Shown: piece after piece, positions 2,806-64,000 of the stretch
How the letters are laid out: each line of letters opens with the position of its first letter
Numbering within the stretch: the stretch's first letter is position 1
Assembly (NCBI GenBank): GCA_035700025.1
Contig: DASSOY010000007.1
Span: 1,193-65,192 of the forward strand
Length of the DNA stretch: 64,000 bases
From: Bacillales bacterium
GTDB lineage: Bacteria > Bacillota > Bacilli > Bacillales > DASSOY01
Reading direction: 5' to 3'
The notes under the pieces: model-generated
What the model saw: the letters and a program-made list of their open reading frames with translations, nothing else
The model's database searches: none
What the model was told of the DNA's origin: nothing
Translations under genes and position numbers: made by a program

Positions 2806-3663
2806 ATGCCGTTGGTTTCAATGAAAAAAATGTTGGAGGACGCGAAAGCCGGGGGGTATGCGGTCGGTCAGTTTAATTTGAACAACTTGGAATTCACGCA
2901 AGCCATCCTGCAAGCAGCGGAAGCCGAGCAGTCACCAGTGATTTGCGGAGTTTCCGAAGGAGCCGCGCGTTACATGGGCGGTTTCAAGACGGTCGTGGAT
3001 ATGGTGAAAGCGTTGATGGAAGAATACGGAATTACGGTTCCGGCGGCGATTCACCTTGATCACGGATCGAGTTTCGAAAAATGCATACAAGCGATCAAAG
3101 CTGGATTTACTTCCGTAATGATCGACGGGTCCGCTTATCCGCTTGACGAAAATATTGCAGTGACGAAACAAGTCGTTGCCGCGGCTCATGCGGTCGGGGT
3201 ATCCGTAGAAGCGGAACTCGGGCGCGTCGGCGGACAGGAAGACGATGTCATCGTTCCTGAAGAAGTGTATGCCGTGCCTGAAGAGTGCCGGCAGCTCGTC
3301 GAGGCCACCGGCGTCGATTGCTTGGCTCCCGCGCTCGGATCGGTACACGGACCGTACAAAGGCGAGCCGAATCTCGGGTTCAAAGAAATGGAGGAAGTGC
3401 AGAACATTACGAAACTCCCTCTCGTTTTGCACGGCGGCACGGGAATACCGACCGCCGATATCCAGCGGGCCATTTCCCTCGGAACGGCAAAGATCAACGT
3501 CAATACGGAAAGCCAAATCTCGTCGGCGAAACGGGTACGGGAAGTATTGGCCGAAAACCCCGATCTGTACGATCCGCGTAAATATATGGGACCCGCGCGC
3601 GAAGCCATCAAAGAAACGGTTATCAACAAGATGCGTGAGTTTGGATCTTCGGGAAAAGCTTAA
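2806..3663 (+). CDS. fbaA: Class II fructose-1,6-bisphosphate aldolase
   Basis: [30 protein letters not shown]...HLDHG...[10 protein letters not shown]. Strong RBS GAAGGAGGA. Synteny supports the call. Confidence 0.95.
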
Positions 3664-3710
3664 ATGATTGCCCGTCCTTATAAGAAAATGAGCTCAAGAG
3701 GTGAACAGCA

Positions 3711-8264: not shown

Positions 8265-8371
8265 CAAATGTCTAACCGGCTTGAAATCCCGTAACCTCCC
8301 TGCTATAATGTACGTTGGCATGCAAAAATACTCTGGTTTGAAATACAATCAGGGCAAAGGAGTTGAACGTG

Positions 8372-18146: not shown

Positions 18147-18383
18147 CCGGCGAGAGGCAAGCCAAGTGTTCTTTCGCATATTTTGAACGAAAGCTTGATT
18201 TGAAAACGATGCGTCATCTTTACGTCGGCGGCGCCGAAAAAGAATTTGTACCGAACGGAAAACAGCACTTTGGCGCATTTGTTTCGAACGAATGTACCAC
18301 TGAAACCATAAGGGGGTCCCAAAAGCTTGAGTTTTTGGGAACGTTTTCCTTTCCGGCAGCTGCCGATTCGATCAAGATTGCCA

Positions 18384-18580
18384 TTATCGCTCACTCATGT
18401 TCTTATTTCCTTCGAAATTCGTATTTTCAGATGAAATCGCTCATCAGAAACGCTATTTTCCGAATTTAGGCCAATAGGGGCTGTATTTTAACCATAAAAG
18501 GGAAATAGCGATCTCAGTGAACGATTTGATAAGATATCCGCTCATTTTCGCAAAATAGCGTCTCTCATACGCGTTTCCGA
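18384..18580. repeat. Degenerate copy of the 251-bp intergenic repeat family
   Basis: It contains the family boxes ATCGCTCATCAGAAACGCTATTTTCC (from 18436), GGAAATAGCGATCTCAGTGAACG and AAAATAGCGTCTCTCATACGCGTTTCC. Their order and orientation match the units at 30.5-31.3 kb. Confidence 0.5.
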
Positions 18581-18593
18581 CTGAAACGTCAGC

Positions 18594-18650
18594 AGGCTGA
18601 CTCGCCGAGTCGTTTTTCAACGACTTTTTGAAGTCAGCCTCGTTTTTTTT
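18594..18650 (+). terminator. Long composite hairpin plus T8, an intrinsic terminator in the upp-atp spacer
   Basis: AGGCTGACT (18594-18602) pairs with AGTCAGCCT (18632-18640), enclosing the inner stem AGTCGTT/AACGACT. It is followed by CGTTTTTTTT. Confidence 0.6.
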
Positions 18651-30469: not shown

Positions 30470-31268
30470 CAAAAGCGAATCTTTCTGATGCTCGGAAAGC
30501 GATGCCGCTCGTTAGCGGCATATCTACGCTTCTCATGTACGATTCACCCATTTGTCGGTGGCACCGACAATTTCCGATTGGTCGAACTGCTGGAATCGCT
30601 CATGAGAGACGCTATTTGGATGGATATCGCGATTTTTTACCGATTATCGCTCATAGAGAACGCTATTTTTTTAGAAACCCCGGAAATCGCATTGATTTCC
30701 GGGTGGTTTTTAGAAATAGCGCTTCTCATGAGCGTTTCTATTTAAAAACCGGGCATATTAGGAAAATAGCGAATCTGATGCACGTTTTTTAATATAGCAT
30801 GAGATTTTCGGTAAACCGAAAATTTCCGATTGGTAGAACTGCTGAAATCGCTCATGAGGAACGCTATTTGGATGGAAATCGCGATTTTTACCGATTATCG
30901 CTCATAGAGAACGCTATTTTTTAAGAAACCCCGGAAATCGCATCGATTTCCGTAAGGTTTTTGGAAATAGCGCTTCTCATGAGCGTTTCCATTTAAAAAC
31001 CGGGCATATTAAGAAAATAGCGAATCTGATGCACGTTTTTTAATATAACATGAGATTTTCGGTCAACCGAAAATTTCCGATTGATCGAACTGCTGAAATC
31101 GCTCATGAGAGACGCTATTTGGATCGAATTCGCGATTTTTACCGATTATCGCTCATAGAGAACGCTATTTTTTAAGAAACCCCGGAAATCGCATCGATTT
31201 CCGGGTGGTTTTTGGAAATAGCGAATCTGATGCACGATTTTAACAAAGCATGAGATTTTCGGAACCGA
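30470..31268. repeat. Tandem array of a structured ~251-bp intergenic repeat: partial unit, two full units, and one unit with an internal deletion
   Basis: The anchor TTTCCGATTG recurs at 30571, 30823 and 31074 (periods of 252 and 251 bp). Units share the hairpins ATTTTCGG-TAAA-CCGAAAAT and CCCGGAAATC-GCATT-GATTTCCGGG, plus four copies of a ~21-nt box (CGCTCATGAGAGACGCTATTT), two direct and two inverted. Confidence 0.88.
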
Positions 31269-31341
31269 GCCGTGTCACCGGCATCAATTTTATCTGTCGA
31301 AATCAAACGTTCCGCCACGATTTTCCTCAATAAGGGTGTCG

Positions 31342-54189: not shown

Positions 54190-54882
54190 ATGAACGGACT
54201 AACGCTCAATACTTTTTCGATAACGGCGAAATGCCGCCATACCGGCATGTTCGGCGTCGCGGTCAGCACCGCCCGGCCGGCCGTCGGCGGGTTGGTGCCT
54301 TACGCGAAAGCGGGGGTCGGTGCAATTGCAACGCAAGCGCTCGTCAATCCGTTCGTCGGCATTGACGGCATGCGTCATTTATCCGCCGGCCTTTCGGCCG
54401 CGGAAGTGAAGGAAAGGCTGCTTGGCGAAGACGACCCGGAGCATGTGGAGCGGCGCCAATTCGCGATCGTCGACGCCGCCGGCCGAACGGCCGGCTACAC
54501 CGGCGGCGACACGGTGCCGTGGGCCGGGCATAAGGCCGGCGACGGCTTTGTCGTCGCCGGGAACATGCTCGTCGGCGCGGAGACGATCGAGGCGATGGCC
54601 GAGAGCTTCGCGGGCAGCGGCGAGCGGCCGCTCGCCGAGCGGCTGCTGGATGCGCTGGCCTGCGGCCAGCGTGCGGGGGGAGACAAGCGAGGGAAGCAGT
54701 CGGCAGCGCTGTATGTCGTGCACGAGGAAGAATATCCGCTCGTGGATATTCGGGTGGATGAGCACGCGGCTCCGGTCGATGAGCTGAAGCGCGTGTATGA
54801 AGTGTGTCAGACTGACTTGTTTCCGTATATGGCGAAAGCGCCGCGAAGAGCGAAGCGAAAGGCAGGGGGTGATGCCGGATGA
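54190..54882 (+). CDS. DUF1028 (Ntn-hydrolase fold) protein embedded in the ABC operon
   Basis: NTFSITAKC...GAIATQA...GGDKRGKQSAALYVV. It is a paralog of 46947-47837 and is translationally coupled to the downstream ATPase by an ATGA overlap. Confidence 0.8.
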   Translation: MNGLTLNTFSITAKCRHTGMFGVAVSTARPAVGGLVPYAKAGVGAIATQALVNPFVGIDGMRHLSAGLSAAEVKERLLGEDDPEHVERRQFAIVDAAGRTAGYTGGDTVPWAGHKAGDGFVVAGNMLVGAETIEAMAESFAGSGERPLAERLLDALACGQRAGGDKRGKQSAALYVVHEEEYPLVDIRVDEHAAPVDELKRVYEVCQTDLFPYMAKAPRRAKRKAGGDAG

Positions 54883-55907
54883 ACGAGAATCAACTGGAAG
54901 TGAAAGCGTTGAACGTTCGGTTCCGGGATCGGAAACGCTCAGTGTCGATTTTGCAGGACGTTTCGTTTTCGGTGAAAAAAGGCGAAACGCTATGCATCGT
55001 AGGCGAATCTGGATGCGGGAAAAGCATTACGTCGCTTGCGGTCATGGGATTGCTTCCGAAAAATGGGGAAGTGGCGTCTGGGGAGATTTTATTTGAAGGG
55101 GAAAATCTCGTTGGCAAGCGTATGAAGGAAATGAGCCGCATTCGCGGCAATGACATTTCGATTATCTTTCAAGAGCCGATGACGTCGTTGAATCCGGTGC
55201 ATACGGTCGGCCGCCAAATCGCCGAAGTTGTTCAGCTTCATCAGAAAAAAGGGAAGCGGGAAGCGATGCGGCAAGCGATCGAAATGTTGAAGCTTGTCGG
55301 GATTCCTTCACCGGAGAAGCGCGTACGCGATTATCCGCACCAGTTGAGCGGGGGGATGCGCCAGCGGGTGATGATTGCGATGGCGCTGGCCTGCAATCCG
55401 AAGCTGTTGATCGCAGATGAACCGACAACGGCGCTCGACGTGACGATTCAAGCACAAATCCTTGAGCTCATGAACGACTTGAAAGACCGGCTTGGGATGT
55501 CAATTATCATGATAACGCATGATCTCGGTGTCGTTTCTGAAATGGCAGACCGCGTGCTTGTCATGTACGCGGGGAAAGTCGTTGAATACAGCGAAGTGGA
55601 TAAACTGTTTGACTATCCGCGGCATCCATACACGCAAGGGCTGATCGAAGCCATTCCGAAGCTCGATGAAGAGCAAGAAGCGCTTGCAATTATCGAAGGA
55701 ACCGTACCGACGCCGGAAAATATGCCGGCCGGCTGCAGGTTCGCGACGCGCTGTCCGTTTGCCAAGAATATTTGCCACAGTGAAGCACCGGGATTATACG
55801 GAGAGTCCGATCACCTTGTCAGTTGTTGGATGTACACCGAACGTTGGGAAAAGGAGGGAAACGAAAATGATCGAGGTGAAACAAAAGCCGCGGGAAAAAA
55901 TGCTTGA
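54879..55907 (+). CDS. ABC transporter ATP-binding protein (DppD/OppD type)
   Basis: Walker A GESGCGKS, signature LSGGMRQR, Walker B LLIADEPT, and a C-terminal oligopeptide-type extension (CRFATRCP). Confidence 0.95.
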
Positions 55908-56853
55908 AGTTCACGGGTTGAAAAAATATTTCACGAGCGGCGGCGGAATGCTGCAATCGAAACAAAAAGCCATAAAAGCCGTTGACGACCTGTCTTTCTT
56001 CATTTATACAGGGGAGACACTCGGTGTCGTTGGTGAATCCGGCTGCGGGAAATCGACGATGGGCCGCACGCTTCTGCGCTTGCAAGAGCCGACGTCAGGC
56101 GAGACGATCTTCGACGGACAAAACATCAACCGGCTCGGCAAGAAGAAAATGCGTTCGCTGCGCAAGGAAATGCAAATGATTTTTCAAGATCCTTACGGCT
56201 CATTGAACCCGCGAATGACGGTCGGGGCGATGCTTGGCGAAATCATTCATACCCATCAAATTGTCCCGAAAAAAGACACTGTGCCTTACATCCACCGGTT
56301 GCTCGAAGACGTGGGCTTGCGGGCCGAACATTATTGGCGCTATCCACATGAATTCAGCGGCGGTCAACGGCAAAGAATCAGCATTGCACGTGCGCTCGCC
56401 GTGAAACCGAAACTGATTGTCTGCGATGAGGCGGTTTCCGCACTCGACGTATCCGTTCAGGCACAGGTGCTTAATTTGCTGCAACGGTTGAAACGTGACT
56501 ATCAGTTGACGTACTTGTTCATTTCCCATGACTTGTCGGTTGTCAAGCATATCAGCGACCGCGTTGCCGTCATGTACCTTGGTCAGATCGTGGAATTGGC
56601 CGATAAAAATGATTTGTACAAGCAACCGCAGCATCCATATACGCAAGCCCTTCTTTCGGCGATCCCGAGCGTCGGAACCGATCAGAAAAGAGAAAGGATT
56701 ATTTTAAAAGGGGACGTCCCGAGTCCGTTGAACGTGCCGAGCGGCTGTCGTTTTCATACGCGCTGCCCATTGGCGGTTGAGAAGTGCAAGACGGACGTTC
56801 CAGCATTCAGAGAAGTCGCGGAGGGTCATTTTACGGCGTGCCACCTCGCGTAA
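55867..56853 (+). CDS. ABC transporter ATP-binding protein (DppF/OppF type)
   Basis: Walker [10 protein letters not shown], signature FSGGQRQR, Walker B LIVCDEAVS, and CRFHTRCP. ATG 55867 overlaps the upstream gene's 3' end. Confidence 0.95.
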   Translation: MIEVKQKPREKMLEVHGLKKYFTSGGGMLQSKQKAIKAVDDLSFFIYTGETLGVVGESGCGKSTMGRTLLRLQEPTSGETIFDGQNINRLGKKKMRSLRKEMQMIFQDPYGSLNPRMTVGAMLGEIIHTHQIVPKKDTVPYIHRLLEDVGLRAEHYWRYPHEFSGGQRQRISIARALAVKPKLIVCDEAVSALDVSVQAQVLNLLQRLKRDYQLTYLFISHDLSVVKHISDRVAVMYLGQIVELADKNDLYKQPQHPYTQALLSAIPSVGTDQKRERIILKGDVPSPLNVPSGCRFHTRCPLAVEKCKTDVPAFREVAEGHFTACHLA

Positions 56854-56915
56854 TCGCCATAATGGATTTAAGAGGGATCATCGTTGTACCATAAGCAATT
56901 TATCATAGCGAGGGA

Positions 56916-57503
56916 ATGGTTCATTTGAAGCAGCAAAGGCAATTGTTTTTCGCATTTTTTCGCGTCGGCATTTTCGGTTATGGAGGCGGGCCGGCATCGA
57001 TACCGCTTGTCCATAAAGAAGTCGTCGAAAATTATAAATGGCTCGATGACCGGGATTTCAACGACTTGTTGGCGCTTGCCAATACGCTTCCCGGGCCGAT
57101 TGCCACAAAAATGGCCGGCTATATCGGCCACCGCGTCGCAGGTGTTACAGGAATGATCAATGCGGTGCTGGCCACGATCTTGCCATCGATCTTCATCATG
57201 GTAGTTTTGTTATCATCGCTCGCAGCCGTGAAAGACAAACCCTGGGTGCAAGGCATGACAGATGCCGTCATGCCGGTCGTCGGCGTCATGCTCGCCGTGC
57301 TCACCTGGAGTTTTTTTCGCAGATCGAAAGAAGGGCTTGGTTTATGGAAGAGTTTAATGTTCGTCGCAGGCAGCTTCGTGTTGATCAAAGTCCTTCCGAG
57401 CCCGGCCATCTTGATTTTAGCCTTGCTGCTGATCGGCTTGCTTAAGCCGGTACGCAAGGACAATGCCGATGCCGTTGGCGCGGAAAGGGAGGAGTCGGTA
57501 TGA
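56916..57503 (+). CDS. chrA: Chromate transporter (CHR family, short half-size subunit 1; ywrB-like)
   Basis: FFRVGIFGYGGGPASIPLVHKEVV...LPGPIATKMAGYIG is the hallmark CHR motif. Confidence 0.88.
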   Translation: MVHLKQQRQLFFAFFRVGIFGYGGGPASIPLVHKEVVENYKWLDDRDFNDLLALANTLPGPIATKMAGYIGHRVAGVTGMINAVLATILPSIFIMVVLLSSLAAVKDKPWVQGMTDAVMPVVGVMLAVLTWSFFRRSKEGLGLWKSLMFVAGSFVLIKVLPSPAILILALLLIGLLKPVRKDNADAVGAEREESV

Positions 57504-58036
57504 TGATTTATTGGAAAATCTTCGTCGCCTTCTTCATTCCCGGCGTTCTCGGCTACGGAGGCGGTCCTGCTTCGATTCCGCTCGTCGAGGACCAAGTCAT
57601 CGACCATTACGGCTGGATGGACGCCGAGAAGTTTGCCGAGGTACTGGCCATCGGCAACGCTTTACCCGGTCCGATTGCCACGAAGCTTGCCGGCTACATC
57701 GGCTATCAACAAGGCGGCATCCTCGGTGCGGTCGTCGGTGTCTTCGCCACCGTCGCACCGTCGCTCATTCTAATGATCTTTTTGCTGGGGATGCTGTACC
57801 GTTTCAAAGACTCGCCGAAGGTGAAACAAATGACAAATTTCATCCGACCGGCGATTGCGGTCTTGCTCGGTGTCATTGCCTTCCAATTTTTCGTGGAATC
57901 GTACCACGGCGCTGGTTGGCTGCAAACGCTCATCCTCACGGCTGCGAGCTTTTTCTTTCTTGAGAAGCTGAAAGTCCACCCGGCGATCGTGATCGCCGGC
58001 GCGCTAGGCTACGGCGCGATCTTCTTGGCGGCTTAA
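57500..58036 (+). CDS. chrA: Chromate transporter (CHR family, short half-size subunit 2; ywrA-like)
   Basis: FFIPGVLGYGGGPASIPLVEDQVI...LPGPIATKLAGYIG. It overlaps the subunit 1 stop. Confidence 0.88.
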   Translation: MMIYWKIFVAFFIPGVLGYGGGPASIPLVEDQVIDHYGWMDAEKFAEVLAIGNALPGPIATKLAGYIGYQQGGILGAVVGVFATVAPSLILMIFLLGMLYRFKDSPKVKQMTNFIRPAIAVLLGVIAFQFFVESYHGAGWLQTLILTAASFFFLEKLKVHPAIVIAGALGYGAIFLAA

Positions 58037-58039
58037 TGT

Positions 58040-58578
58040 GGATTTAGCTCATACAGGTGAAAATTTCCGATAGGGCGAATTGCTGGAATCGCTCATGAGA
58101 GACGCTATTTGGATCAAATTCGCGATTTCCCAAAATTATCGCTCATCCAGAACGCTATTTTCCCAGAACCCCCGGAAATCGGATGGATTCCCGGTTGGTT
58201 TTTGGGAATAGCGCATCGTATGCACGATTCCATCTGAAAAAGCGGGCATATTAGGCAAATAGCGCATCTGATGCACGTTTTTCATATAACATGAGATTTT
58301 CGGTAAACCGAAAATGTCCGTTTGGTCGAACTGCTGGAATCGCTCATGAGAGACGCTATTTGGATCAAATTCGCGATTTCCAACGATTATCGCTCATCCA
58401 GAACGCTATTTTCAGAGAACCCCCGAAAATCGGATGGATTTCCGGTTGGTTTTTGGGAATAGCGCATCTGGTGCACGATTCCATCTGAAAAAGCGGGCAT
58501 ATCAGGCAAATAGCGCATCTGATGCACGATTTTCATATAACATGAGATTTTCGGTAAACCGAAAATGTTCGATTGGTG
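58040..58578. repeat. Second tandem array of the ~251-bp intergenic repeat family (two full units plus partial ends)
   Basis: GCTGGAATCGCTCATGAGAGACGCTATTTGGATCAAATTCGCGATTTCC occurs at 58082 and 58333 (period 251). The layout of boxes and hairpins matches the array at 30.47-31.27 kb. Confidence 0.88.
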
Positions 58579-59553
58579 CTAGGAAAGTTCGAACACTTTT
58601 ACAGATGTTTTGAGACGTTCAAATTCCTCCAATGCGATTGAGCCTGCCTTTTTTGTTAGTGCATTTGCTGCCCCTGCTGCCGCTGCCATGCATAAGCAAT
58701 GTTTGATTTTATTCCCGCTGTAAAGTCCGGCAATGAATCCAGCCGCGAATGAATCTCCTGAACCTACACTGTTCACCACATTAATGGGAGGGGGGATTAC
58801 TCGATAAAATTTGTCGTTTGCAGATACGATTGCTCCGTCTTTACCTAATGTAACGATCATAATCGGAATCTTGAATTTTCTCCATTTATTTAGAGTGTGA
58901 ACCACTTCGTCTTCCGAAATTTGATCGACACCGACAATTTGGGCCAATTCTTCTTGATTCGGTTTTATGAGGAAAGGTTCAGCCATCAAAACTTCTTTAA
59001 ATGGTGCTCCACTAGTATCAACAACTGCTTTTGCCCCTTGTGCATGAATGACTTTGACAAGTTCGGCATAAGATCGGTTCGTCAAACCCTGCGGCAAGCT
59101 CCCTGACAAGACGATGTACTCACTCTTTGAAGCTAGAGCATCAAGCGTTTTCTTCAACTGGTTCCATTGCTCGTGATTAATCCATGGCCCTTTTTCGAGA
59201 ATTTCTGTAGACTCGTTTTTTTGTTTGTCAATCACGTTCAAACAAATTCGTGATTCACCGGAGACGTGGACAAATTCATGTTCAATTTGTAATAAATCCA
59301 TACTTTCAGATAAAAATGCTCCGTTGTAACCCCCAGCGAACCCCGTCACTGTAACGGGGATGTTTAAGGTTTTCAATACCTTTGCGACGTTGATTCCCTT
59401 TCCGCCAGGTTCGATGTGCATTTGATTTACGCGATTGACTCTGTTTTTTTCAAATGACGCCATATAGTAAGTTTTATCGATGGCGAGATTTAAGGTGACT
59501 GTCGTTATCAAAAGGTTTCCCCACTTTTCTGTCGAAATGACGTACACAACCAA
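58579..59553 (-). CDS. 1-phosphofructokinase / tagatose-6-phosphate kinase family hexose-phosphate kinase (FruK/LacC/PfkB)
   Basis: ITTVTLNLAIDKTY...GGKGINVAKVL...IKPNQEEL...VNSVGSGDSFAAGF. An alternative TTG start at 59511 gives the usual family N-terminus. Confidence 0.87.
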   Translation of the reverse strand: MVVYVISTEKWGNLLITTVTLNLAIDKTYYMASFEKNRVNRVNQMHIEPGGKGINVAKVLKTLNIPVTVTGFAGGYNGAFLSESMDLLQIEHEFVHVSGESRICLNVIDKQKNESTEILEKGPWINHEQWNQLKKTLDALASKSEYIVLSGSLPQGLTNRSYAELVKVIHAQGAKAVVDTSGAPFKEVLMAEPFLIKPNQEELAQIVGVDQISEDEVVHTLNKWRKFKIPIMIVTLGKDGAIVSANDKFYRVIPPPINVVNSVGSGDSFAAGFIAGLYSGNKIKHCLCMAAAAGAANALTKKAGSIALEEFERLKTSVKVFELS

Positions 59554-59560
59554 AGCCGAT

Positions 59561-60496
59561 TTAATTGTTGATTTTCAATTTGGTGAGTTGTCTGAAGCCT
59601 TCCTTCCTATTGTGCGAAGAAATCACTGTTGCGCTCACTTCGTTAGCGAAACGGAGGCAATTTGACAAAGGCTTCTCTTGTCTTCTTGCGAATAAATATC
59701 CCATATCAAAGATATCTCCTGCTCCAGTAGTATCGACGACGTCTGTTTCGTGACTTGGGGGGACTTGAATGAGTTCACCGTCCTTCATAACAGCAGCGCC
59801 ATTTGCGCCAAGTTTCACCACAACTTCCCCACAATACTTTTTAACGATATCCAGTCCTTTTTGCCATTCCGATGTATTCGTCAAATGACAAATTTCTGTT
59901 TCATTCGGCATGAAGACATCGACAAATTGAAGCAGATGAAAGGTCTGCGATTTTCTTTTCTCAGTCCATCCAGATGGATCCCAGCTTGGATCAAAGTAGA
60001 CGCGTTTTCCAAGCGATTGTTGTTCTTTCGCGACTACGACAGCCTCGATTGGTGAAAATTTCGGCAGCAAATACGTCCCACAAATCACAACGTCATCACA
60101 GACATCGAGAAGTTCTTTTTTGGCATGATAAATAGACAAACCGAACGCATCATGAGCCCCGGAAACAGAAACTATCGCCCTTGAGCCATTTTCATGTACG
60201 ATAACGAAGCCGTTAGGCGTTATGGTGTTTTCCACACATACAATACCTTCCGTTGCAAGTCCCCTTGTTTCTAATTCACGAATGAGAAACTTCCCTTGAT
60301 CATCGTTTCCGATGCTTGAAATGATGTTGGCCTTCACGCCAAGGGCATGCAAGGCAATTGCCATGTAACCTGCCGTTCCGGCGACTCTCGTTTCAAAGCT
60401 TTCGGCCTCGATTTCGGCATCCCAGTGAGGGGCTTCTTTCACTTTTCCAATGACCGTATCCACGTTATAATTCCCAATAATACCAACAGGGTTCAT
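59561..60496 (-). CDS. PfkB/ribokinase-family sugar kinase
   Basis: GIIGNYNVDTV...GTAGYMAIALHALG...VVDTTGAGDIFDMGYL (the anion-hole/GAGD motif). Confidence 0.85.
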   Translation of the reverse strand: MNPVGIIGNYNVDTVIGKVKEAPHWDAEIEAESFETRVAGTAGYMAIALHALGVKANIISSIGNDDQGKFLIRELETRGLATEGIVCVENTITPNGFVIVHENGSRAIVSVSGAHDAFGLSIYHAKKELLDVCDDVVICGTYLLPKFSPIEAVVVAKEQQSLGKRVYFDPSWDPSGWTEKRKSQTFHLLQFVDVFMPNETEICHLTNTSEWQKGLDIVKKYCGEVVVKLGANGAAVMKDGELIQVPPSHETDVVDTTGAGDIFDMGYLFARRQEKPLSNCLRFANEVSATVISSHNRKEGFRQLTKLKINN

Positions 60497-60529
60497 AAAA
60501 AAACAACCTCCTCGATCAACGATGTTTCA

Positions 60530-61360
60530 TTATTGTTTAACAGCGGCAGTCGTTAAGCCGGAAACTAAATATTTGTTGAGAAAAATAACGATCAAAATCG
60601 GTGGGATCATCGTGATCACACCAGCGGCGGTCATTAATCCGTAATTAATCGATGTTCGGCCAACAAATTCGGTGATCAGTACCGTTAAAGGTTTTGTTTC
60701 CGAAGGAGCAAACACCAGTGGAATCAAGAATTGGCTCCATGCATTTAAGAAGGTCAAAATCGCAACGGCGACCACACCAGGTAGAGCAATAGGCAAAATC
60801 GTCCATAAAGCCCTGAGTTTTGTCGCACCGTCAACCGTAGCGGCTTCTTCCAACTCTTTCGGGATCGTTGCAAAATAACTTCTCATTAACCATACGGCTA
60901 ACGGTGCAAAAGCGGAAACGTAGATTAACGTAATGCCCACTTGCGTATCGATCAAGCCAATACTTATCATGACTTTATACAACGGAATCATGACTGCATA
61001 GGCTGGCAAGGCCATGGTGATTAAAATCATACTAAAAATGATGTTTCGCCCTTTGAAGGGTATTCTCGCAAAAGCATATCCAGCTAAAATTGAAACGATC
61101 ACCACGACGACGGTAGAACCAAGACAACTAATTGATGTGTTGACCATTGCCCCTTTGAACTGAACCCATAACGACGACTGTTTATCGAAGCCTAAAAGTT
61201 GTTGGTAGTGTTGCAAACTTAACGGAATAGGCAAATACTTTGGCGGCAAGGTCGTTAAAGCTTTATTGGATAACAGGCTTGTACGGAGTGCCCAATATAT
61301 GGGGGCCAATGTCCAAAATAAAATAAAAACGACGGATATTCCCGTTTTTAGTTTTTTCAT
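60530..61360 (-). CDS. Carbohydrate ABC transporter permease (MalG/CUT1 type)
   Basis: Six TM helices and an EAA loop (IPKELEEAATVDGATKLR). ATG 61360 makes an ATGA overlap with the upstream permease stop. Confidence 0.93.
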   Translation of the reverse strand: MKKLKTGISVVFILFWTLAPIYWALRTSLLSNKALTTLPPKYLPIPLSLQHYQQLLGFDKQSSLWVQFKGAMVNTSISCLGSTVVVVIVSILAGYAFARIPFKGRNIIFSMILITMALPAYAVMIPLYKVMISIGLIDTQVGITLIYVSAFAPLAVWLMRSYFATIPKELEEAATVDGATKLRALWTILPIALPGVVAVAILTFLNAWSQFLIPLVFAPSETKPLTVLITEFVGRTSINYGLMTAAGVITMIPPILIVIFLNKYLVSGLTTAAVKQ

Positions 61361-62232
61361 GTTTTCGCCCTTCTTTCCCTCAATAACCAAATATAAAGCA
61401 CGCTAATGGCCAAAGTAGCTATGGTAATAAGCAAGGAAAGTGCCATGCCCAATCCTAGGTCCAACTGACGAAAAGCAATTAGGTAGGTTTGGATTAAAAT
61501 CGATCGAGTATCCAAGGCCGTCCCTGTAAGAACAAATATTTCATCAAACAAATTTACGGCCATAAATGTCATTTGCGTTAATGCTATGGCGATTGCCGGT
61601 TTCAACATAGGCAACGTAATTCTCTGGAAGCGTTGCCACCGATTTGCTCCGTCAATTTCTGCGGCTTCATAAATGTCGTCAGGAATGGTGGTGAGTGCTG
61701 CCAATAAAATGACGGCAACGATCGGAATCATTTTCCAAATATGAACGATCGCCACGAGAAAAATCGCAAGACCAGGTTGACCCAACAAGACTTGATACGA
61801 ATCAATGAGACCTGCGTGAAGCAAAAGATCGTTTAAAACACCATAGGAAGGATCGTAAATCCATTTCCAAATCACACCATTTACCACAGGGGGCAATGCC
61901 CATGGAAGAATCACCAATGCAAGCACAATTCCTCTTCCCCTGAATTTGTTTCTCAACGTCAGGGCGATGAACAGACCTCCGAGAAATTCCCCGACAATCG
62001 CCAAAATATAGTACAAAGCTGTGTTTCCAGCCGCCCGCAATACAACGGGATCCTGTAATAAATTGATATAGTTGCTTAAGCCCACAAACTTCACGTCTGC
62101 CGGCTTTGTTAAATTTAATGACTTGAAACTGTCGATCAATGTAACGAAACCCGGATAAAAAACTAAGCTGATCATGACAAAAGCTAGAGGAAAAATTAAT
62201 AAGTACGGAAATATTTTCTTTCTCACCTGCAT
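61357..62232 (-). CDS. Carbohydrate ABC transporter permease (MalF/CUT1 type)
   Basis: Six TM helices and an EAA loop (IPDDIYEAAEIDGANRWQRF). Confidence 0.93.
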   Translation of the reverse strand: MQVRKKIFPYLLIFPLAFVMISLVFYPGFVTLIDSFKSLNLTKPADVKFVGLSNYINLLQDPVVLRAAGNTALYYILAIVGEFLGGLFIALTLRNKFRGRGIVLALVILPWALPPVVNGVIWKWIYDPSYGVLNDLLLHAGLIDSYQVLLGQPGLAIFLVAIVHIWKMIPIVAVILLAALTTIPDDIYEAAEIDGANRWQRFQRITLPMLKPAIAIALTQMTFMAVNLFDEIFVLTGTALDTRSILIQTYLIAFRQLDLGLGMALSLLITIATLAISVLYIWLLRERRAKT

Positions 62233-62289
62233 GTCTTTCCTCCCTTAAAGAGAGGGGCTGTAAAATTACTTTACAGCCCGTCCTAGATA

Positions 62290-63606
62290 TTACTTCTGAG
62301 TGATTTCTTTTGCTTTATCGCCAATTTTTTGGATGCCTTCGTCGAGCGACAGTGAACCTTTCGCCATTTGATTAATCGTAGTAGCGACTGTTGTGCTGAA
62401 TTCAGGGTACCAAGGTGGTGTGCCTTGGGGGAATAAAGGTTCAACTGTTGGGAGGACTTTGAGTATTGTATCGCCACCAGGCAATTCTCCGGCTTCATTC
62501 ATTGATTCGAGAACGCTTTTACGATTGGGCAGTAAGCCGAGATCCTTATATAATTTTTTAACATTTTCAGGTTGATTTAACCATTTGATGAATGCTACTG
62601 AAGCCTCTTTATGTTTCGAAGCCTTAGGAATTCCGAAGGCCCCAACCAATCCGAATGTCCGGCTTTCCCCATCTTTACCGGGAACAGGAATCATCTGAAC
62701 GCTATCGCTCACTTTTGATTTTTCTGAATCTTTATAGACGGCGTAATTTCCAGACCATCCCGACAAATCAATGGCAGATTTTCCGGACTTAAATTGATCG
62801 ATGACATCGACGTCTTTCAAGCTGACAGCAGCAGGATCAATAATATGATCTTCTTTCATGCTTTCGATGATAAACTGCATCGCTTTGTATCCAGCCGAAT
62901 TCTTAGAAGTAAATAAAGGGTTCCAATCCTTATCGAAAAGTTCTCCGCCATATGCTTTTGTCATCAAATACCACGGTGTAGCAGCTCCTTCCGTAGCAGA
63001 CAGAGGCAAACCGAGAGGATAATCGACGATACCTTTGCTCTTGATTTTTTTAGCATCTTCAATCAACTGTTGAGGAGTTTGCGGCATTTCGGTAATGCCT
63101 GCAGCTTTAAAATATTTCTCGTTAATATATGTGACACGAAAATCGTTAAAGTAGGGCATCGCCAAATAGTGATCATTGTATTTGAAAATATCCATCGTCG
63201 GGATGTCGTCAATCAACTTTTGATCAAAGTATTGGTTTAAAGGTTCGTACCAATTCGATGCCCCAAATTGCCCGACCCAAGACCAGTCAAATTCGGTGAT
63301 GTCTGCGGGGGCAACTCCGGCAGCTGCAGAGGTGACGATTTTATCATGAATGTCGTCCCAGCCGAGCGTTTCAATGTGGACGGTTATGCCGGATTCTTTC
63401 TTGAATTCATCCAGCATGCTTTGCGGGATTTTCGACCAAGGCGGCAGCAAAGCCTTAATTTCCGTGCCTTTTAAATCTTTTTGACCGTTGCCGTCTCCGG
63501 CTGATCCTTCGCTGTTTCCTTGTCCTGAACAGCCGAAAGTGACAATACTTAAGACGAGAACCATGCCAATCATCAACCATTTTTTACAACCCATGATTTT
63601 CTTCAT
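62290..63606 (-). CDS. Carbohydrate ABC transporter substrate-binding lipoprotein (family 1)
   Basis: MKKIMGCKKWLMIGMVLVLSIVTFGC (lipobox). ATG 63606 follows AAAGGAGGA. Confidence 0.92.
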   Translation of the reverse strand: MKKIMGCKKWLMIGMVLVLSIVTFGCSGQGNSEGSAGDGNGQKDLKGTEIKALLPPWSKIPQSMLDEFKKESGITVHIETLGWDDIHDKIVTSAAAGVAPADITEFDWSWVGQFGASNWYEPLNQYFDQKLIDDIPTMDIFKYNDHYLAMPYFNDFRVTYINEKYFKAAGITEMPQTPQQLIEDAKKIKSKGIVDYPLGLPLSATEGAATPWYLMTKAYGGELFDKDWNPLFTSKNSAGYKAMQFIIESMKEDHIIDPAAVSLKDVDVIDQFKSGKSAIDLSGWSGNYAVYKDSEKSKVSDSVQMIPVPGKDGESRTFGLVGAFGIPKASKHKEASVAFIKWLNQPENVKKLYKDLGLLPNRKSVLESMNEAGELPGGDTILKVLPTVEPLFPQGTPPWYPEFSTTVATTINQMAKGSLSLDEGIQKIGDKAKEITQK

Positions 63607-63673
63607 TATATCCTCCTTTTTGAAGCGTATCTGCAAGCGTTTGCAATTTTTCGGCGGGAGATGACTTCTCTCC

Positions 63674-64000
63674 CTATGCCTTTTGATCCGATTTGACATT
63701 CAAAATGATTTGCTTTGCAACATCTTTCACTACTTGTCTAGCTGTGAGAAAATATTTTCTTGGATCGGATTCCTTTGGATGTTGCTTAAGATATTGACGC
63801 AGTTCTTCGATAAATGTGTTCTTTAAATCTGTTGAAATATTGACTTTACTTACGCCAAACTTCAATGCTTCTCGAACGCTTGTTGACGAAACACCTGAAG
63901 CACCATGCATGACGATCGGAAGGCAAACTCGAGTTGAAATTTCTTGCAATCGATTGAAATCAAGTTTCGGGTCATCTTTGTATACGCCATGCGCGGTGCC
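63674..64000 (-). CDS. Class II ketose-bisphosphate aldolase (FbaA/GatY/KbaY family); 3' part only, as the 5' end runs off the window
   Basis: LPIVMHGASGVSSTSVREALKFGVSKVNISTDLK is the class II aldolase C-terminal pattern. The reading frame continues open to base 64000. Confidence 0.85.
   Translation of the reverse strand, partial: GTAHGVYKDDPKLDFNRLQEISTRVCLPIVMHGASGVSSTSVREALKFGVSKVNISTDLKNTFIEELRQYLKQHPKESDPRKYFLTARQVVKDVAKQIILNVKSDQKA

What the first reader, a model, noticed from the sequence alone, without database searches (positions are those of the whole stretch)
58040..58578. A second array of the same repeat family 27 kb away, with local homogenisation, again at a module boundary
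Between the chromate transporter genes and the convergent sugar-kinase gene lie two full 251-bp units plus partial ends. They show the same order of hairpins and boxes as the array at 30.47-31.27 kb.

Units within an array are nearly identical by eye. Units from the two arrays differ at roughly one position in five. For example, the third box here reads AATAGCGCATCTGGTGCACG instead of AATAGCGCTTCTCATGAGCG. That pattern indicates either local amplification or concerted evolution at each site, rather than one recent duplication of a whole block.

Both arrays occupy gene-module junctions (island/nuo and chrA/sugar cluster). The last unit runs right up to the stop codon of the kinase gene at 58579.
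Basis: seen in the sequence. Interest (0 to 1): 0.6.

Follow-up and report, generated by a model that had tools for sequence, protein, structure and literature searches.

The report
Paired repeat arrays bracketing sugar operon
The 540-bp gap after the chromate-transporter genes is a tandem array of a non-coding four-box palindromic repeat scattered through this uncultured Bacillales genome. With a near-identical twin array just past the window it brackets a low-GC sugar operon that a related species lacks, so it is a REP/MITE-like repeat at the edge of a gene insertion, not a new kind of system.

Summary
Window 58040-58578 holds 2.1 tandem copies of a 251-bp unit of the same family as the array at 30.47-31.27 kb. 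Identity is 94-95% within an array and 83-85% between these two arrays.

The "local homogenisation" reading holds only in part. A third array lies 8.1 kb further on, just outside the window. Its units intermingle with those of this array on a tree (A2.2 vs A3.2 97.8%, A2.1 vs A2.2 94.8%).

The "module boundary" reading is supported. The two twin arrays are direct repeats bracketing a 7.9-kb sugar operon with 43% GC against 52-56% in the flanks. A congener has a different 2-kb segment there. Another congener joins atpC directly to nuoA where this genome has an island plus the first array.

Each unit has four 23-bp boxes (ATCGnnCA-N10-TATTT) in ++/-- order at fixed 50/68/50-bp spacing, around a covarying stem-loop. 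About 49 units lie at 37 intergenic loci, mostly just behind stop codons.

A sister family occurs patchily in other Bacilli. No known partner enzyme was found: RAYT and DUF559 are both absent.

I read it as a protein-recognised REP/BIME- or MITE-like repeat amplified locally. This scan had already described the family on the first array.

The parts
58040..58578 (+). Array A2: a leading partial unit (right arm of the linker hairpin plus linker, 58040-58084) followed by two full units. It fills the whole gap between the chrA stop and the PfkB kinase stop.
   Evidence: TRF period 251, 2.1 copies; sequence; nhmmer scores 260 and 262 bits.
58085..58335 (+). Unit A2.1: box1 58088-58110 (+), box2 58138-58160 (+), central stem-loop about 58170-58194, box3 58206-58228 (-), box4 58257-58279 (-), linker hairpin TTTTCGGTAAACCGAAAA 58297-58314.
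   Evidence: Read from the sequence; box register.
58336..58578 (+). Unit A2.2: box1 58339-58361, box2 58389-58411, central stem-loop about 58421-58445, box3 58457-58479, box4 58508-58530, linker hairpin 58548-58565. It ends at the base before the kinase stop codon.
   Evidence: It is 97.8% identical to unit 2 of the third array.
30470..31270 (+). Array A1 of the same family: partial box4 plus hairpin, two full units, and a third unit with a deletion from box3 to box4. It lies between the island and nuoA.
   Evidence: TRF; alignment. Its units are monophyletic at 100/98. Congener G001 has atpC directly followed by nuoA.
18342..18583 (-). A solo, more diverged four-box element of the family inside the window (C7:19534-19775). 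An unrelated hairpin module (GGCTGACTC...GAGTCAGCC) lies next to it.
   Evidence: nhmmer 52 bits; flank similarity to C57 and C12.
56916..58036 (+). Split chromate-transporter gene pair (two Chromate_transp proteins). The array follows its stop codon with no other terminator. In congener G002 the same gene pair is followed by a plain intrinsic terminator.
   Evidence: Pfam PF02417, E 2e-45 and 2e-41; G002 sequence.
58579..64000 (-). Start of the minus-strand, GntR-regulated sugar operon: two PfkB kinases, ABC permeases and SBP, class II aldolase, SIS protein and GntR/UTRA regulator. It runs on to about window 66456. GC is 42.6%. Array A2 lies on this side and twin array A3 (window-equivalent 66670-67238, outside the window) on the far side.
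   Evidence: Pfam; GC; A3 sequence. No blastn match to the kinase end or the aldolase/SIS genes in the congeners; those searches did not cover the middle of the operon.

Best explanation
This is one array of a dispersed, non-coding, protein-recognised palindromic repeat family. It works like the REP/BIME clusters or MITEs of other bacteria.

Shown:
- Each unit of about 195 bp carries four versions of one 23-bp box (ATCGnnCA-N10-TATTT). Two are forward and two inverted, at rigid 50/68/50-bp spacing, around a central stem-loop that covaries between copies.
- Units of the array-forming subfamilies also carry a 54-bp linker with a small hairpin.
- The family occupies intergenic DNA, often within 3-20 bp of a stop codon.
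- It is present here at syntenic sites where congeners have 190-340 bp less DNA; at the one site aligned base by base they carry a plain terminator hairpin instead.

Inferred:
- The boxes are docking sites for one sequence-specific DNA-binding protein. It is probably the enzyme that spreads the element, and it is not identified.
- Arrays arise by local tandem duplication (unequal recombination or slippage between the repeated boxes), not by repeated insertion.
- A2 and its twin A3 are two ends of one story. They are direct repeats flanking a low-GC, horizontally acquired sugar operon. Either they arrived with that DNA or they supplied the homology at which it was exchanged. They can still delete or amplify it by recombination.
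- The central stem-loop with its T-tract probably also terminates chrA transcription, replacing the ordinary terminator seen in the congener.
For: Architecture and census:
- nhmmer finds 49 units at 37 loci.
- The two-box pattern gives 46 matches against 0 in shuffled sequence. With up to 2 mismatches it gives 71 matches against 0 for the reversed-pattern control.
- Core length is 191-200 bp in 35 copies that are otherwise only about 70% alike.

Protein recognition rather than helix maintenance:
- Majority-base frequency is 0.93 in box flanks, 0.72 in box centres and 0.64 in spacers.
- Box1-box4 complementarity within an element is no better than between elements (p=0.64).
- Spacers 1-2 and 3-4 are not complementary (p=0.41).
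- The RNAalifold consensus is only -1.9 kcal/mol.
- There is no Rfam match.

Real central stem-loop: within-element complementarity has p<0.0005, and z<-2 in 20 of 35 copies.

Intergenic position with 3'-end bias: 14 convergent, 12 tandem and 4 divergent contexts.

Filled versus empty sites against congeners.

Lineage restriction:
- 0 and 1 loose matches in the two congeners.
- 6 of 400 genomes of the order and 0 of 400 further genomes of the class match.
- A sister family with the same 50-bp grammar occurs in Alkalihalobacillus bogoriensis, Paenibacillus humicus, Cytobacillus eiseniae and others.

Local amplification:
- Arrays A1, C34 and C25 are each monophyletic, and C34 has a 3-unit higher-order period.
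- Small arrays also occur in isolate genomes: 225 bp x 2.5 and 223 bp x 2.8.

A2/A3 and the operon.

Terminator-like central hairpin on the + strand only. It folds better on the + strand in 20 of 26 copies (p=0.017).
Against: - No partner protein was found. Y1/RAYT is absent. DUF559 is absent here and in G110. Genes lying between box pairs are ordinary metabolic genes.
- No target-site duplication and no autonomous parent element were seen (plasmids and phages).
- Solo copies are old (terminal branches 0.14-0.3), so there is no sign of recent transposition.
- Presence/absence against congeners that are only 70-78% identical cannot separate insertion from loss.
- A2 and A3 do not look like two halves of one split unit (A2 ends in a linker, A3 starts in a box4). 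Whether they came with the operon, or were converted afterwards, is open.
- Element orientation relative to the upstream gene is only 8:4 in tandem contexts, which is not significant.
Confidence: 0.6

Rival explanations
1. The unit is mainly an RNA-level element. It would be transcribed from the upstream gene, and its central stem-loop (with the long box-box hairpin) would act as a terminator, attenuator or 3'-end stabiliser. The arrays would be stacked terminators between convergent operons.
For: - One unit folds into a hairpin of about 195 nt plus a small hairpin, with z -3.4 on the + strand and -5.5 on the - strand.
- The central hairpin followed by GGTTTTTGG scores as terminator-like on the + strand.
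- It covaries and folds better on the + strand in 20 of 26 copies.
- The array replaces the plain terminator that follows chrA in G002 and the terminator hairpin between convergent genes at the C58 locus.
- 26 of 30 loci abut at least one 3' gene end.
Against: - The four boxes are the best-conserved part, yet they show no compensatory maintenance, and the spacers do not pair.
- A terminator does not need four boxes at fixed spacing.
- The T-tract is short in many copies.
- Four loci are divergent (5'-5') contexts, and orientation bias is not significant.
- No Rfam family matches.
Confidence: 0.15
2. The boxes are sites for a host chromosomal protein (nucleoid-associated, topological or regulatory), and the arrays are functional host DNA kept by selection rather than selfish repeats.
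For: - Box flanks stay at 0.93 majority frequency while spacers drift to 0.64, in copies with long terminal branches. This looks like purifying selection after each copy arose.
- Spacing is rigid.
- The spacers carry an A-run, a GC-rich core and a T-run (visible in the 12 copies printed); reading these as DNA-bending tracts is my inference.
- Loci are clustered: 14 pairs lie within 15 kb against 5.5 expected (p=0.004).
Against: - The phyletic spread is extremely patchy: the strict pattern finds 6 of 400 order genomes, 1 of 10 in genus g30, and none in the two congeners, of which one has a single doubtful loose match. A conserved host function would not be so scattered.
- Box sequence differs between lineages (ATCGCTCA here, ATCGGACA elsewhere), as expected if it co-evolves with a dedicated partner.
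Confidence: 0.15
3. A2 and A3 are recombination scars. They would be duplicated attachment-site-like sequences (four arm-type boxes around a core palindrome) left by a site-specific recombinase that integrated the sugar operon.
For: - Direct repeats bracket exactly one low-GC operon that was not detected in the congeners.
- The layout of four boxes plus a central inverted repeat resembles arm and core sites. This resemblance is from my own knowledge, not a test.
Against: - No integrase or recombinase gene lies in or next to the block.
- The same units occur at about 35 other loci that do not bracket islands.
- The arms of the central palindrome covary instead of keeping one sequence.
- Both ends are arrays of 2 or more units.
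Confidence: 0.07
4. The array, or its similarity to A3, is an assembly artefact of a short-read metagenome bin.
For: - Contigs overlap by exactly 141 bp.
- 17 of 37 loci lie within 2.5 kb of contig ends.
Against: - Units differ at 5-6% of positions, and both arrays have unique flanks on one 72-kb contig.
- Comparable small arrays exist in a finished genome and in an isolate draft.
Confidence: 0.03

Closest known systems
REP/BIME clusters and REPIN-RAYT systems of Enterobacteria and Pseudomonas
   Same: - Non-coding and extragenic, mostly behind stop codons.
- Built from one short motif in alternating orientations plus other small modules.
- Forms local tandem clusters.
- Lineage-specific motif variants.
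- Used as landing sites by other mobile elements (from my own knowledge, IS1397 and IS110-type elements in REPs; here a group II intron in the boxes).
   Different: - The repeated motif is a 23-bp bipartite box, not itself a hairpin, at fixed 50-bp spacing, rather than a 35-bp palindrome.
- No RAYT (PF01797) gene is in the genome.
- Copies are far more diverged (about 70%).
MITEs of bacteria (Correia/CREE of Neisseria, ERIC, RUP, bcr1 of the Bacillus cereus group)
   Same: - Size 190-250 bp, non-coding, with inverted terminal boxes (GGAATCG...CGATTCC).
- Present or absent at syntenic sites between species.
- Possible terminator activity.
   Different: - No target-site duplication was seen.
- No parent IS with matching ends was found.
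- There are two binding-site-like boxes per arm plus a covarying central stem-loop.
- It forms head-to-tail arrays.
Pneumococcal BOX elements (boxA-boxB(n)-boxC)
   Same: Modular make-up with an internally repeatable module, intergenic position and hairpin-forming potential (PMC3049150, found; only its abstract was read).
   Different: The sequence is unrelated. Here whole units, not one sub-module, are repeated, and the four-box symmetry is absent from BOX.
The same family as described earlier in this scan on the first array (note e1-3623874)
   Same: Same four-box palindromic unit, the same conclusion of protein-recognised selfish DNA with an unknown partner, and presence in several Bacillales. 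I reproduced each point independently.
   Different: New here:
- the third array and its intermingling with this one
- the bracketing of a low-GC operon
- empty sites in congeners
- intron homing into boxes
- rejection of DUF559 as partner

Membership tests
REP/REPIN-RAYT | A RAYT (Y1 HUH transposase, Pfam PF01797) gene in the genome, flanked by the repeats | tested here: not met
   PF01797 has no match in the 97.7%-complete genome, while the control genomes responded. No gene was found bracketed by inverted elements.
REP/REPIN-RAYT | The basic unit is a short imperfect palindrome (about 20-40 bp), arranged as inverted doublets | tested here: not met
   The conserved unit is a 23-bp bipartite box, ATCGnnCA-N10-TATTT, with a variable centre. 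Pairs of boxes are direct repeats 50 bp apart on each arm.
REP/BIME | Extragenic, mosaic clusters of the motif with other small modules, including tandem arrays | tested here: met
   All 37 loci are intergenic. There are at least five arrays. Extra hairpin modules lie next to elements.
MITE | Terminal inverted repeats | tested here: met
   Conservation begins at GGAATCG on the left and ends at CGAT(T/C)(C/T) on the right. The outer boxes are inverted.
MITE | Target-site duplication flanking each copy | tested here: inconclusive
   No consistent direct repeat is seen by eye in the flanks of 18 copies. Empty sites in the congeners are too diverged to fix the junctions.
MITE | An autonomous parent element with the same ends | tested here: not met
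   No kb-scale inverted box pairs were seen in this genome or in 80 loci from other carriers. There is no match in the plasmid or phage collections. The bin is incomplete, so absence is not proven.
MITE | Insertion polymorphism at syntenic sites | tested here: met
   At C12:168303 and C58:70251 the congeners have the same flanking genes with 190-340 bp less DNA and no element. The comparison is between species, so loss is not excluded.
Structured non-coding RNA family | Conserved secondary structure supported by compensatory changes | tested here: inconclusive
   This holds only for the central 45-nt stem-loop (p<0.0005). It does not hold for the box helices or spacers. No Rfam hit.
Repeat plus DUF559/Vsr-like nuclease pairs (a lead from earlier notes of this scan) | A DUF559 (PF04480) gene bracketed by the repeats | tested here: not met
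   PF04480 is absent from this genome and from carrier G110. In genus g6 it is only a domain of a 1258-aa protein.

The most novel reading that the evidence does not exclude
The four-box unit is the DNA half of an undescribed repeat-plus-enzyme system of Bacilli. Its partner would be neither a RAYT nor a DUF559 nuclease. Its arrays would act as portable homology or att-like cassettes through which accessory operons, such as the low-GC sugar operon bracketed by A2 and A3, are inserted, exchanged or deleted.
Probability: 0.2. Interest if true: 0.65.

Novelty: new variant of a known kind. Interest (0 to 1): 0.42.

Why it matters
Gram-positive bacilli are usually thought to be poor in REP-type repeats. 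This family has a strict four-box grammar. It has more than 35 loci in this genome, and dozens of box matches in Alkalihalobacillus bogoriensis. It also occurs in Paenibacillus and Cytobacillus, so there is an unidentified DNA-binding partner to be found.

For this locus, the practical points are these:
- The two arrays mark the exact edges of a horizontally acquired sugar operon.
- They give it built-in direct repeats for loss or amplification.
- They probably supply the terminator for the chromate-transporter genes.
- They attract group II introns.

For annotation, the arrays explain several contig breaks and spurious small ORFs.

Tried and rejected
- Rfam at gathering and E-value thresholds on the window and five array loci: only an L31 leader, group II intron ends and a spurious miRNA hit.
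- Plasmid and phage collections, with this unit and with two sister-family units: no match.
- Exact G000-type box pattern in 185,579 species genomes: 0 hits. The sister-type box found 82 stretches.
- RAYT as partner: absent.
- DUF559 as partner: absent here and in G110.
- SEC-C/HTH/TPR protein next to the C59 element: wrong phyletic pattern.
- Genes lying between box pairs: a metallo-beta-lactamase hydrolase and an ActP/DUF294/RNase T operon, all ordinary.
- Orthologous-copy conservation between G007 and G128: uninformative, because the genomes are 95-98% identical throughout.
- Shared sequence at the starts of contigs C4, C6 and C47 next to elements: none.
- By-eye resemblance of the boxes to Noc, CodY, cre, CIRCE, LexA and Spo0A sites, and to Tn7, Mu, Tn552 or IS21 end repeats: rejected, because spacing or termini do not fit. 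This rests on memory only and was not tested.
- Literature searches for the box strings and for descriptions of such repeats in Bacillaceae: nothing relevant.

Full report
**Observation**

The stretch 58040-58578 is a tandem array with a 251-bp period, 2.1 copies and 92% matches. The array at 30563-31223 has the same period.

The array lies between a split chromate-transporter gene pair (two PF02417 proteins, 56916-58036) and a convergent PfkB kinase gene (58579-59553, minus strand). It begins 4 bp after the chrA stop and ends at the base before the kinase stop codon.

The window is contig C7:1193-65192 of a 2.84-Mb, 90-contig, 49.6% GC genome. Contig ends overlap by exactly 141 bp. I infer a short-read metagenome bin, so unit counts are lower bounds.

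The nearest named genomes are soil MAGs labelled "Bacillales bacterium".

**Anatomy of the unit**

Each unit holds four versions of one 23-bp box. Boxes 1 and 2 are forward and boxes 3 and 4 are inverted. The box-to-box steps are 50, 68 and 50 bp.

A 45-nt central segment usually forms a stem-loop. In the array-forming units, box 4 is followed by a 54-bp linker with the small hairpin TTTTCGGTAAACCGAAAA.

In an alignment of 35 full units from the whole genome, the invariant positions spell ATCGnnCA-N10-TATTT in every box. Core length stays at 191-200 bp, although mean column identity is only 69%.

**DNA or RNA**

A single unit folds into a long hairpin, with z -3.4 on the + strand and -5.5 on the - strand. 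That fold comes from the shared box consensus, not from maintained pairs:

- RNAalifold finds only -1.9 kcal/mol of consensus structure.
- Box1-box4 likeness within an element is no higher than between elements (p=0.64), and box2-box3 is only marginally higher (p=0.01).
- The spacers between boxes 1-2 and 3-4 are not complementary (p=0.41).

Conservation runs in the order box flanks 0.93, box centres 0.72, spacers 0.64. That is the signature of protein-binding sites.

The central stem-loop is different:

- Its two arms covary (p<0.0005).
- It is stable in 20 of 35 copies.
- It folds better on the element's + strand in 20 of 26 non-redundant copies (p=0.017).
- In this array it is followed by GGTTTTTGG, which scores as terminator-like on the + strand only.

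No Rfam family matches.

**The family in this genome**

nhmmer finds 49 units at 37 loci. A two-box pattern gives 46 exact matches against 0 in shuffled sequence. With up to 2 mismatches it gives 71 matches against 0 for the reversed-pattern control.

All loci are intergenic. Of the 30 loci with two called neighbours, 14 are convergent, 12 tandem and 4 divergent. Many elements start 3-20 bp from a stop codon.

Loci are clustered: 14 pairs lie within 15 kb against 5.5 expected (p=0.004). In addition, 17 of 37 loci lie within 2.5 kb of a contig end.

Further tandem arrays exist at C34:220-1654 (six units) and C25:30612-31111 (two units). A third array lies on this contig at C7:67862-68430, which would be window 66670-67238 and so falls just outside the window.

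**Test of "local homogenisation"**

Identity on the 233-column core is as follows:

| Comparison | Identity |
|---|---|
| Within A1 | 93.9% |
| Within A2 (this array) | 94.8% |
| Within A3 | 94.3% |
| A1 vs A2 | 83-85% |
| A2 vs A3 | 93.9-97.8% |
| A2.2 vs A3.2 | 97.8% |

The right half of A3.1 carries A1-type characters, so the units are mosaics.

A maximum-likelihood tree of the 35 units makes A1 (100/98), the C34 array (100/99) and the C25 array (92/54) monophyletic. It intermingles A2 and A3 as (A3.1,(A2.1,(A2.2,A3.2))), with 0% bootstrap support for either array alone.

In C34, units three apart are sisters. That array therefore grew by duplication of a three-unit block.

In-register and off-register alignments of A2 with A3 are equally good: 93.5% against 94.7%.

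The within-array excess is therefore real for A1 against A2 but fails for A2 against A3. In-situ tandem duplication, plus duplication or conversion between A2 and A3, explains the data without ongoing concerted evolution.

**Test of "module boundaries"**

This claim is supported.

- Beyond the kinase, the minus-strand operon continues with a second PfkB kinase, ABC transport genes, a class II aldolase, a SIS protein and a GntR/UTRA regulator.
- A3 follows, then the conserved spoIIID-mbl-flgF/G genes.
- A2 and A3 are therefore direct repeats bracketing exactly one 7.9-kb operon.
- The operon has 42.6% GC, and the arrays 44.2% and 42.7%. The flanks have 52% (chrA side) and 56% (spoIIID side).
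- In congener G002, chrA and spoIIID lie on one contig 2 kb apart. A plain terminator and two permease genes lie between them, with no repeat and no sugar operon.
- In congener G001, atpC is followed by nuoA after 155 bp. Here the four-gene island and A1 intervene.

Two solo elements were also compared with the congeners.

- At C12:168303 and C58:70251 the congeners keep both flanking genes but have 190-340 bp less DNA between them.
- At C58:70251, the one site aligned, they carry an ordinary terminator hairpin.

The congeners are only 70-78% identical in genes. Insertion and loss therefore cannot be told apart, and exact junctions could not be fixed.

**Distribution elsewhere**

- The 251-bp unit finds nothing by BLAST in 40 relatives.
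- The two-box pattern finds 6 of 400 other genomes of the order. Three have clear multi-copy signals: G007 with 17 matches, G128 with 23 and G110 with 13.
- It finds none of 400 further genomes of the class.
- The two congeners give 0 and 1 loose matches.
- In other carriers the box reads ATCGGACATnnnTTCCGYTATTT.
- Named carriers include Alkalihalobacillus bogoriensis ATCC BAA-922 (which I identify with G007 by matching contig lengths), Paenibacillus humicus, Cytobacillus eiseniae, Salibacterium aidingense, and Gracilibacillus, Neobacillus and Rossellomorea species.
- The ++/-- grammar and the 50-bp step are the same. The central gap differs between lineages: 58 bp in G110 and P. humicus, 110 bp in A. 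bogoriensis.
- Small tandem arrays occur there too, in a finished genome (225 bp x 2.5, 93%) and in an isolate draft (223 bp x 2.8, 88%).

Arrays are thus a trait of the family and not an assembly artefact.

**Partner search**

No partner was found.

- RAYT (PF01797) is absent.
- DUF559 (PF04480) was a lead from earlier notes of this scan on other phyla. It is absent here and in G110.
- Genes between box pairs are ordinary.
- A neighbouring HTH/TPR protein has the wrong phyletic pattern.
- Plasmid and phage collections hold nothing similar.
- Literature searches found no description of the family.

**Mechanism proposed**

Shown:
- a four-box, fixed-spacing, intergenic repeat with a real central stem-loop
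- a lineage-restricted spread
- presence/absence at syntenic sites
- tandem growth by block duplication
- twin arrays bracketing a compositionally foreign operon at a synteny break

Inferred:
- The boxes dock one sequence-specific protein, probably the spreading enzyme.
- Arrays grow by unequal recombination between boxes.
- A2 and A3 either came with the operon or provided the homology for its exchange, and they can still delete or amplify it.
- The central stem-loop terminates chrA transcripts.

Rivals are an RNA-level terminator or stabiliser, host-protein binding DNA, recombinase scars, and an assembly artefact. They are scored in their own section.

**Comparison and verdict**

The element works like REP/BIME clusters and MITEs, but it fails the defining tests for REPIN-RAYT: there is no RAYT and no palindromic unit. 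It is only a partial fit to MITEs: it has inverted ends and insertion polymorphism, but no target duplication and no parent element were seen.

This scan had already described the family on array 1 (note e1-3623874), and I reproduced its main points independently.

New here are:
- the third array and the failure of array-wise clustering
- the operon-bracketing geometry with its GC contrast
- the congener comparisons
- the rejection of DUF559
- intron homing into the boxes

I rate it a new variant of a known kind, of moderate interest.

Noticed in passing
G000 C7:72335 (would be window 71143, outside), C29:89227, C14:37208: Three contigs end in the 5' part of a group II intron (Rfam RF02003, 67 bits). 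In each case the intron starts directly after a repeat box, always as ...TGATCGAT|GCGCGCC. The intron therefore appears to home into the ATCGATCA variant of the box, much as some IS elements target REPs.
   Followed up: partly
window 18579-18641 (C7:19771-19833); also C57:3789-3850, C39:13235-13300, C19:23680-23750, C12:11984-12045: A second small repeat module, a nested hairpin GGCTGACTC..GTCGTTgaaaAACGAC..GAGTCAGCC, sits directly beside several solo four-box elements.
   Followed up: no
C7:67810-67860 (left of array A3), C46:8230-8280, C59:3330-3390 and 3640-3680: A third hairpin module, CCCCGTTCATTCG...CGAATGAACGGGG, flanks array-type units at three loci. The repeats are therefore mosaics of several modules.
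   Followed up: no
window 54879-58036 compared with G002:C203:4227-8788: In the congener, the split chrA pair lies between two oligopeptide-type ABC ATPase genes and two permease-like genes. chrA may itself be an insertion into an opp-like operon. In this genome the permease genes at that place are replaced by the repeat-bracketed sugar operon.
   Followed up: partly
L134:634-770 (G128) and about 40 places in G007: Alkalihalobacillus bogoriensis and its sister species carry another, unrelated repeat of about 137 bp at roughly 90% identity in 40 or more copies. This looks like a recently active MITE.
   Followed up: no
window 8331-8362: The L31-Firmicutes ribosomal-protein leader (RF03156, 34.6 bits) is the only Rfam gathering-level hit in the window.
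   Followed up: no
window 58291-58488 and 58434-58613: Two small + strand ORFs (65 and 59 aa) lie wholly or mostly inside the repeat units. They are by-products of the repeat sequence and should not be annotated as genes.
   Followed up: partly
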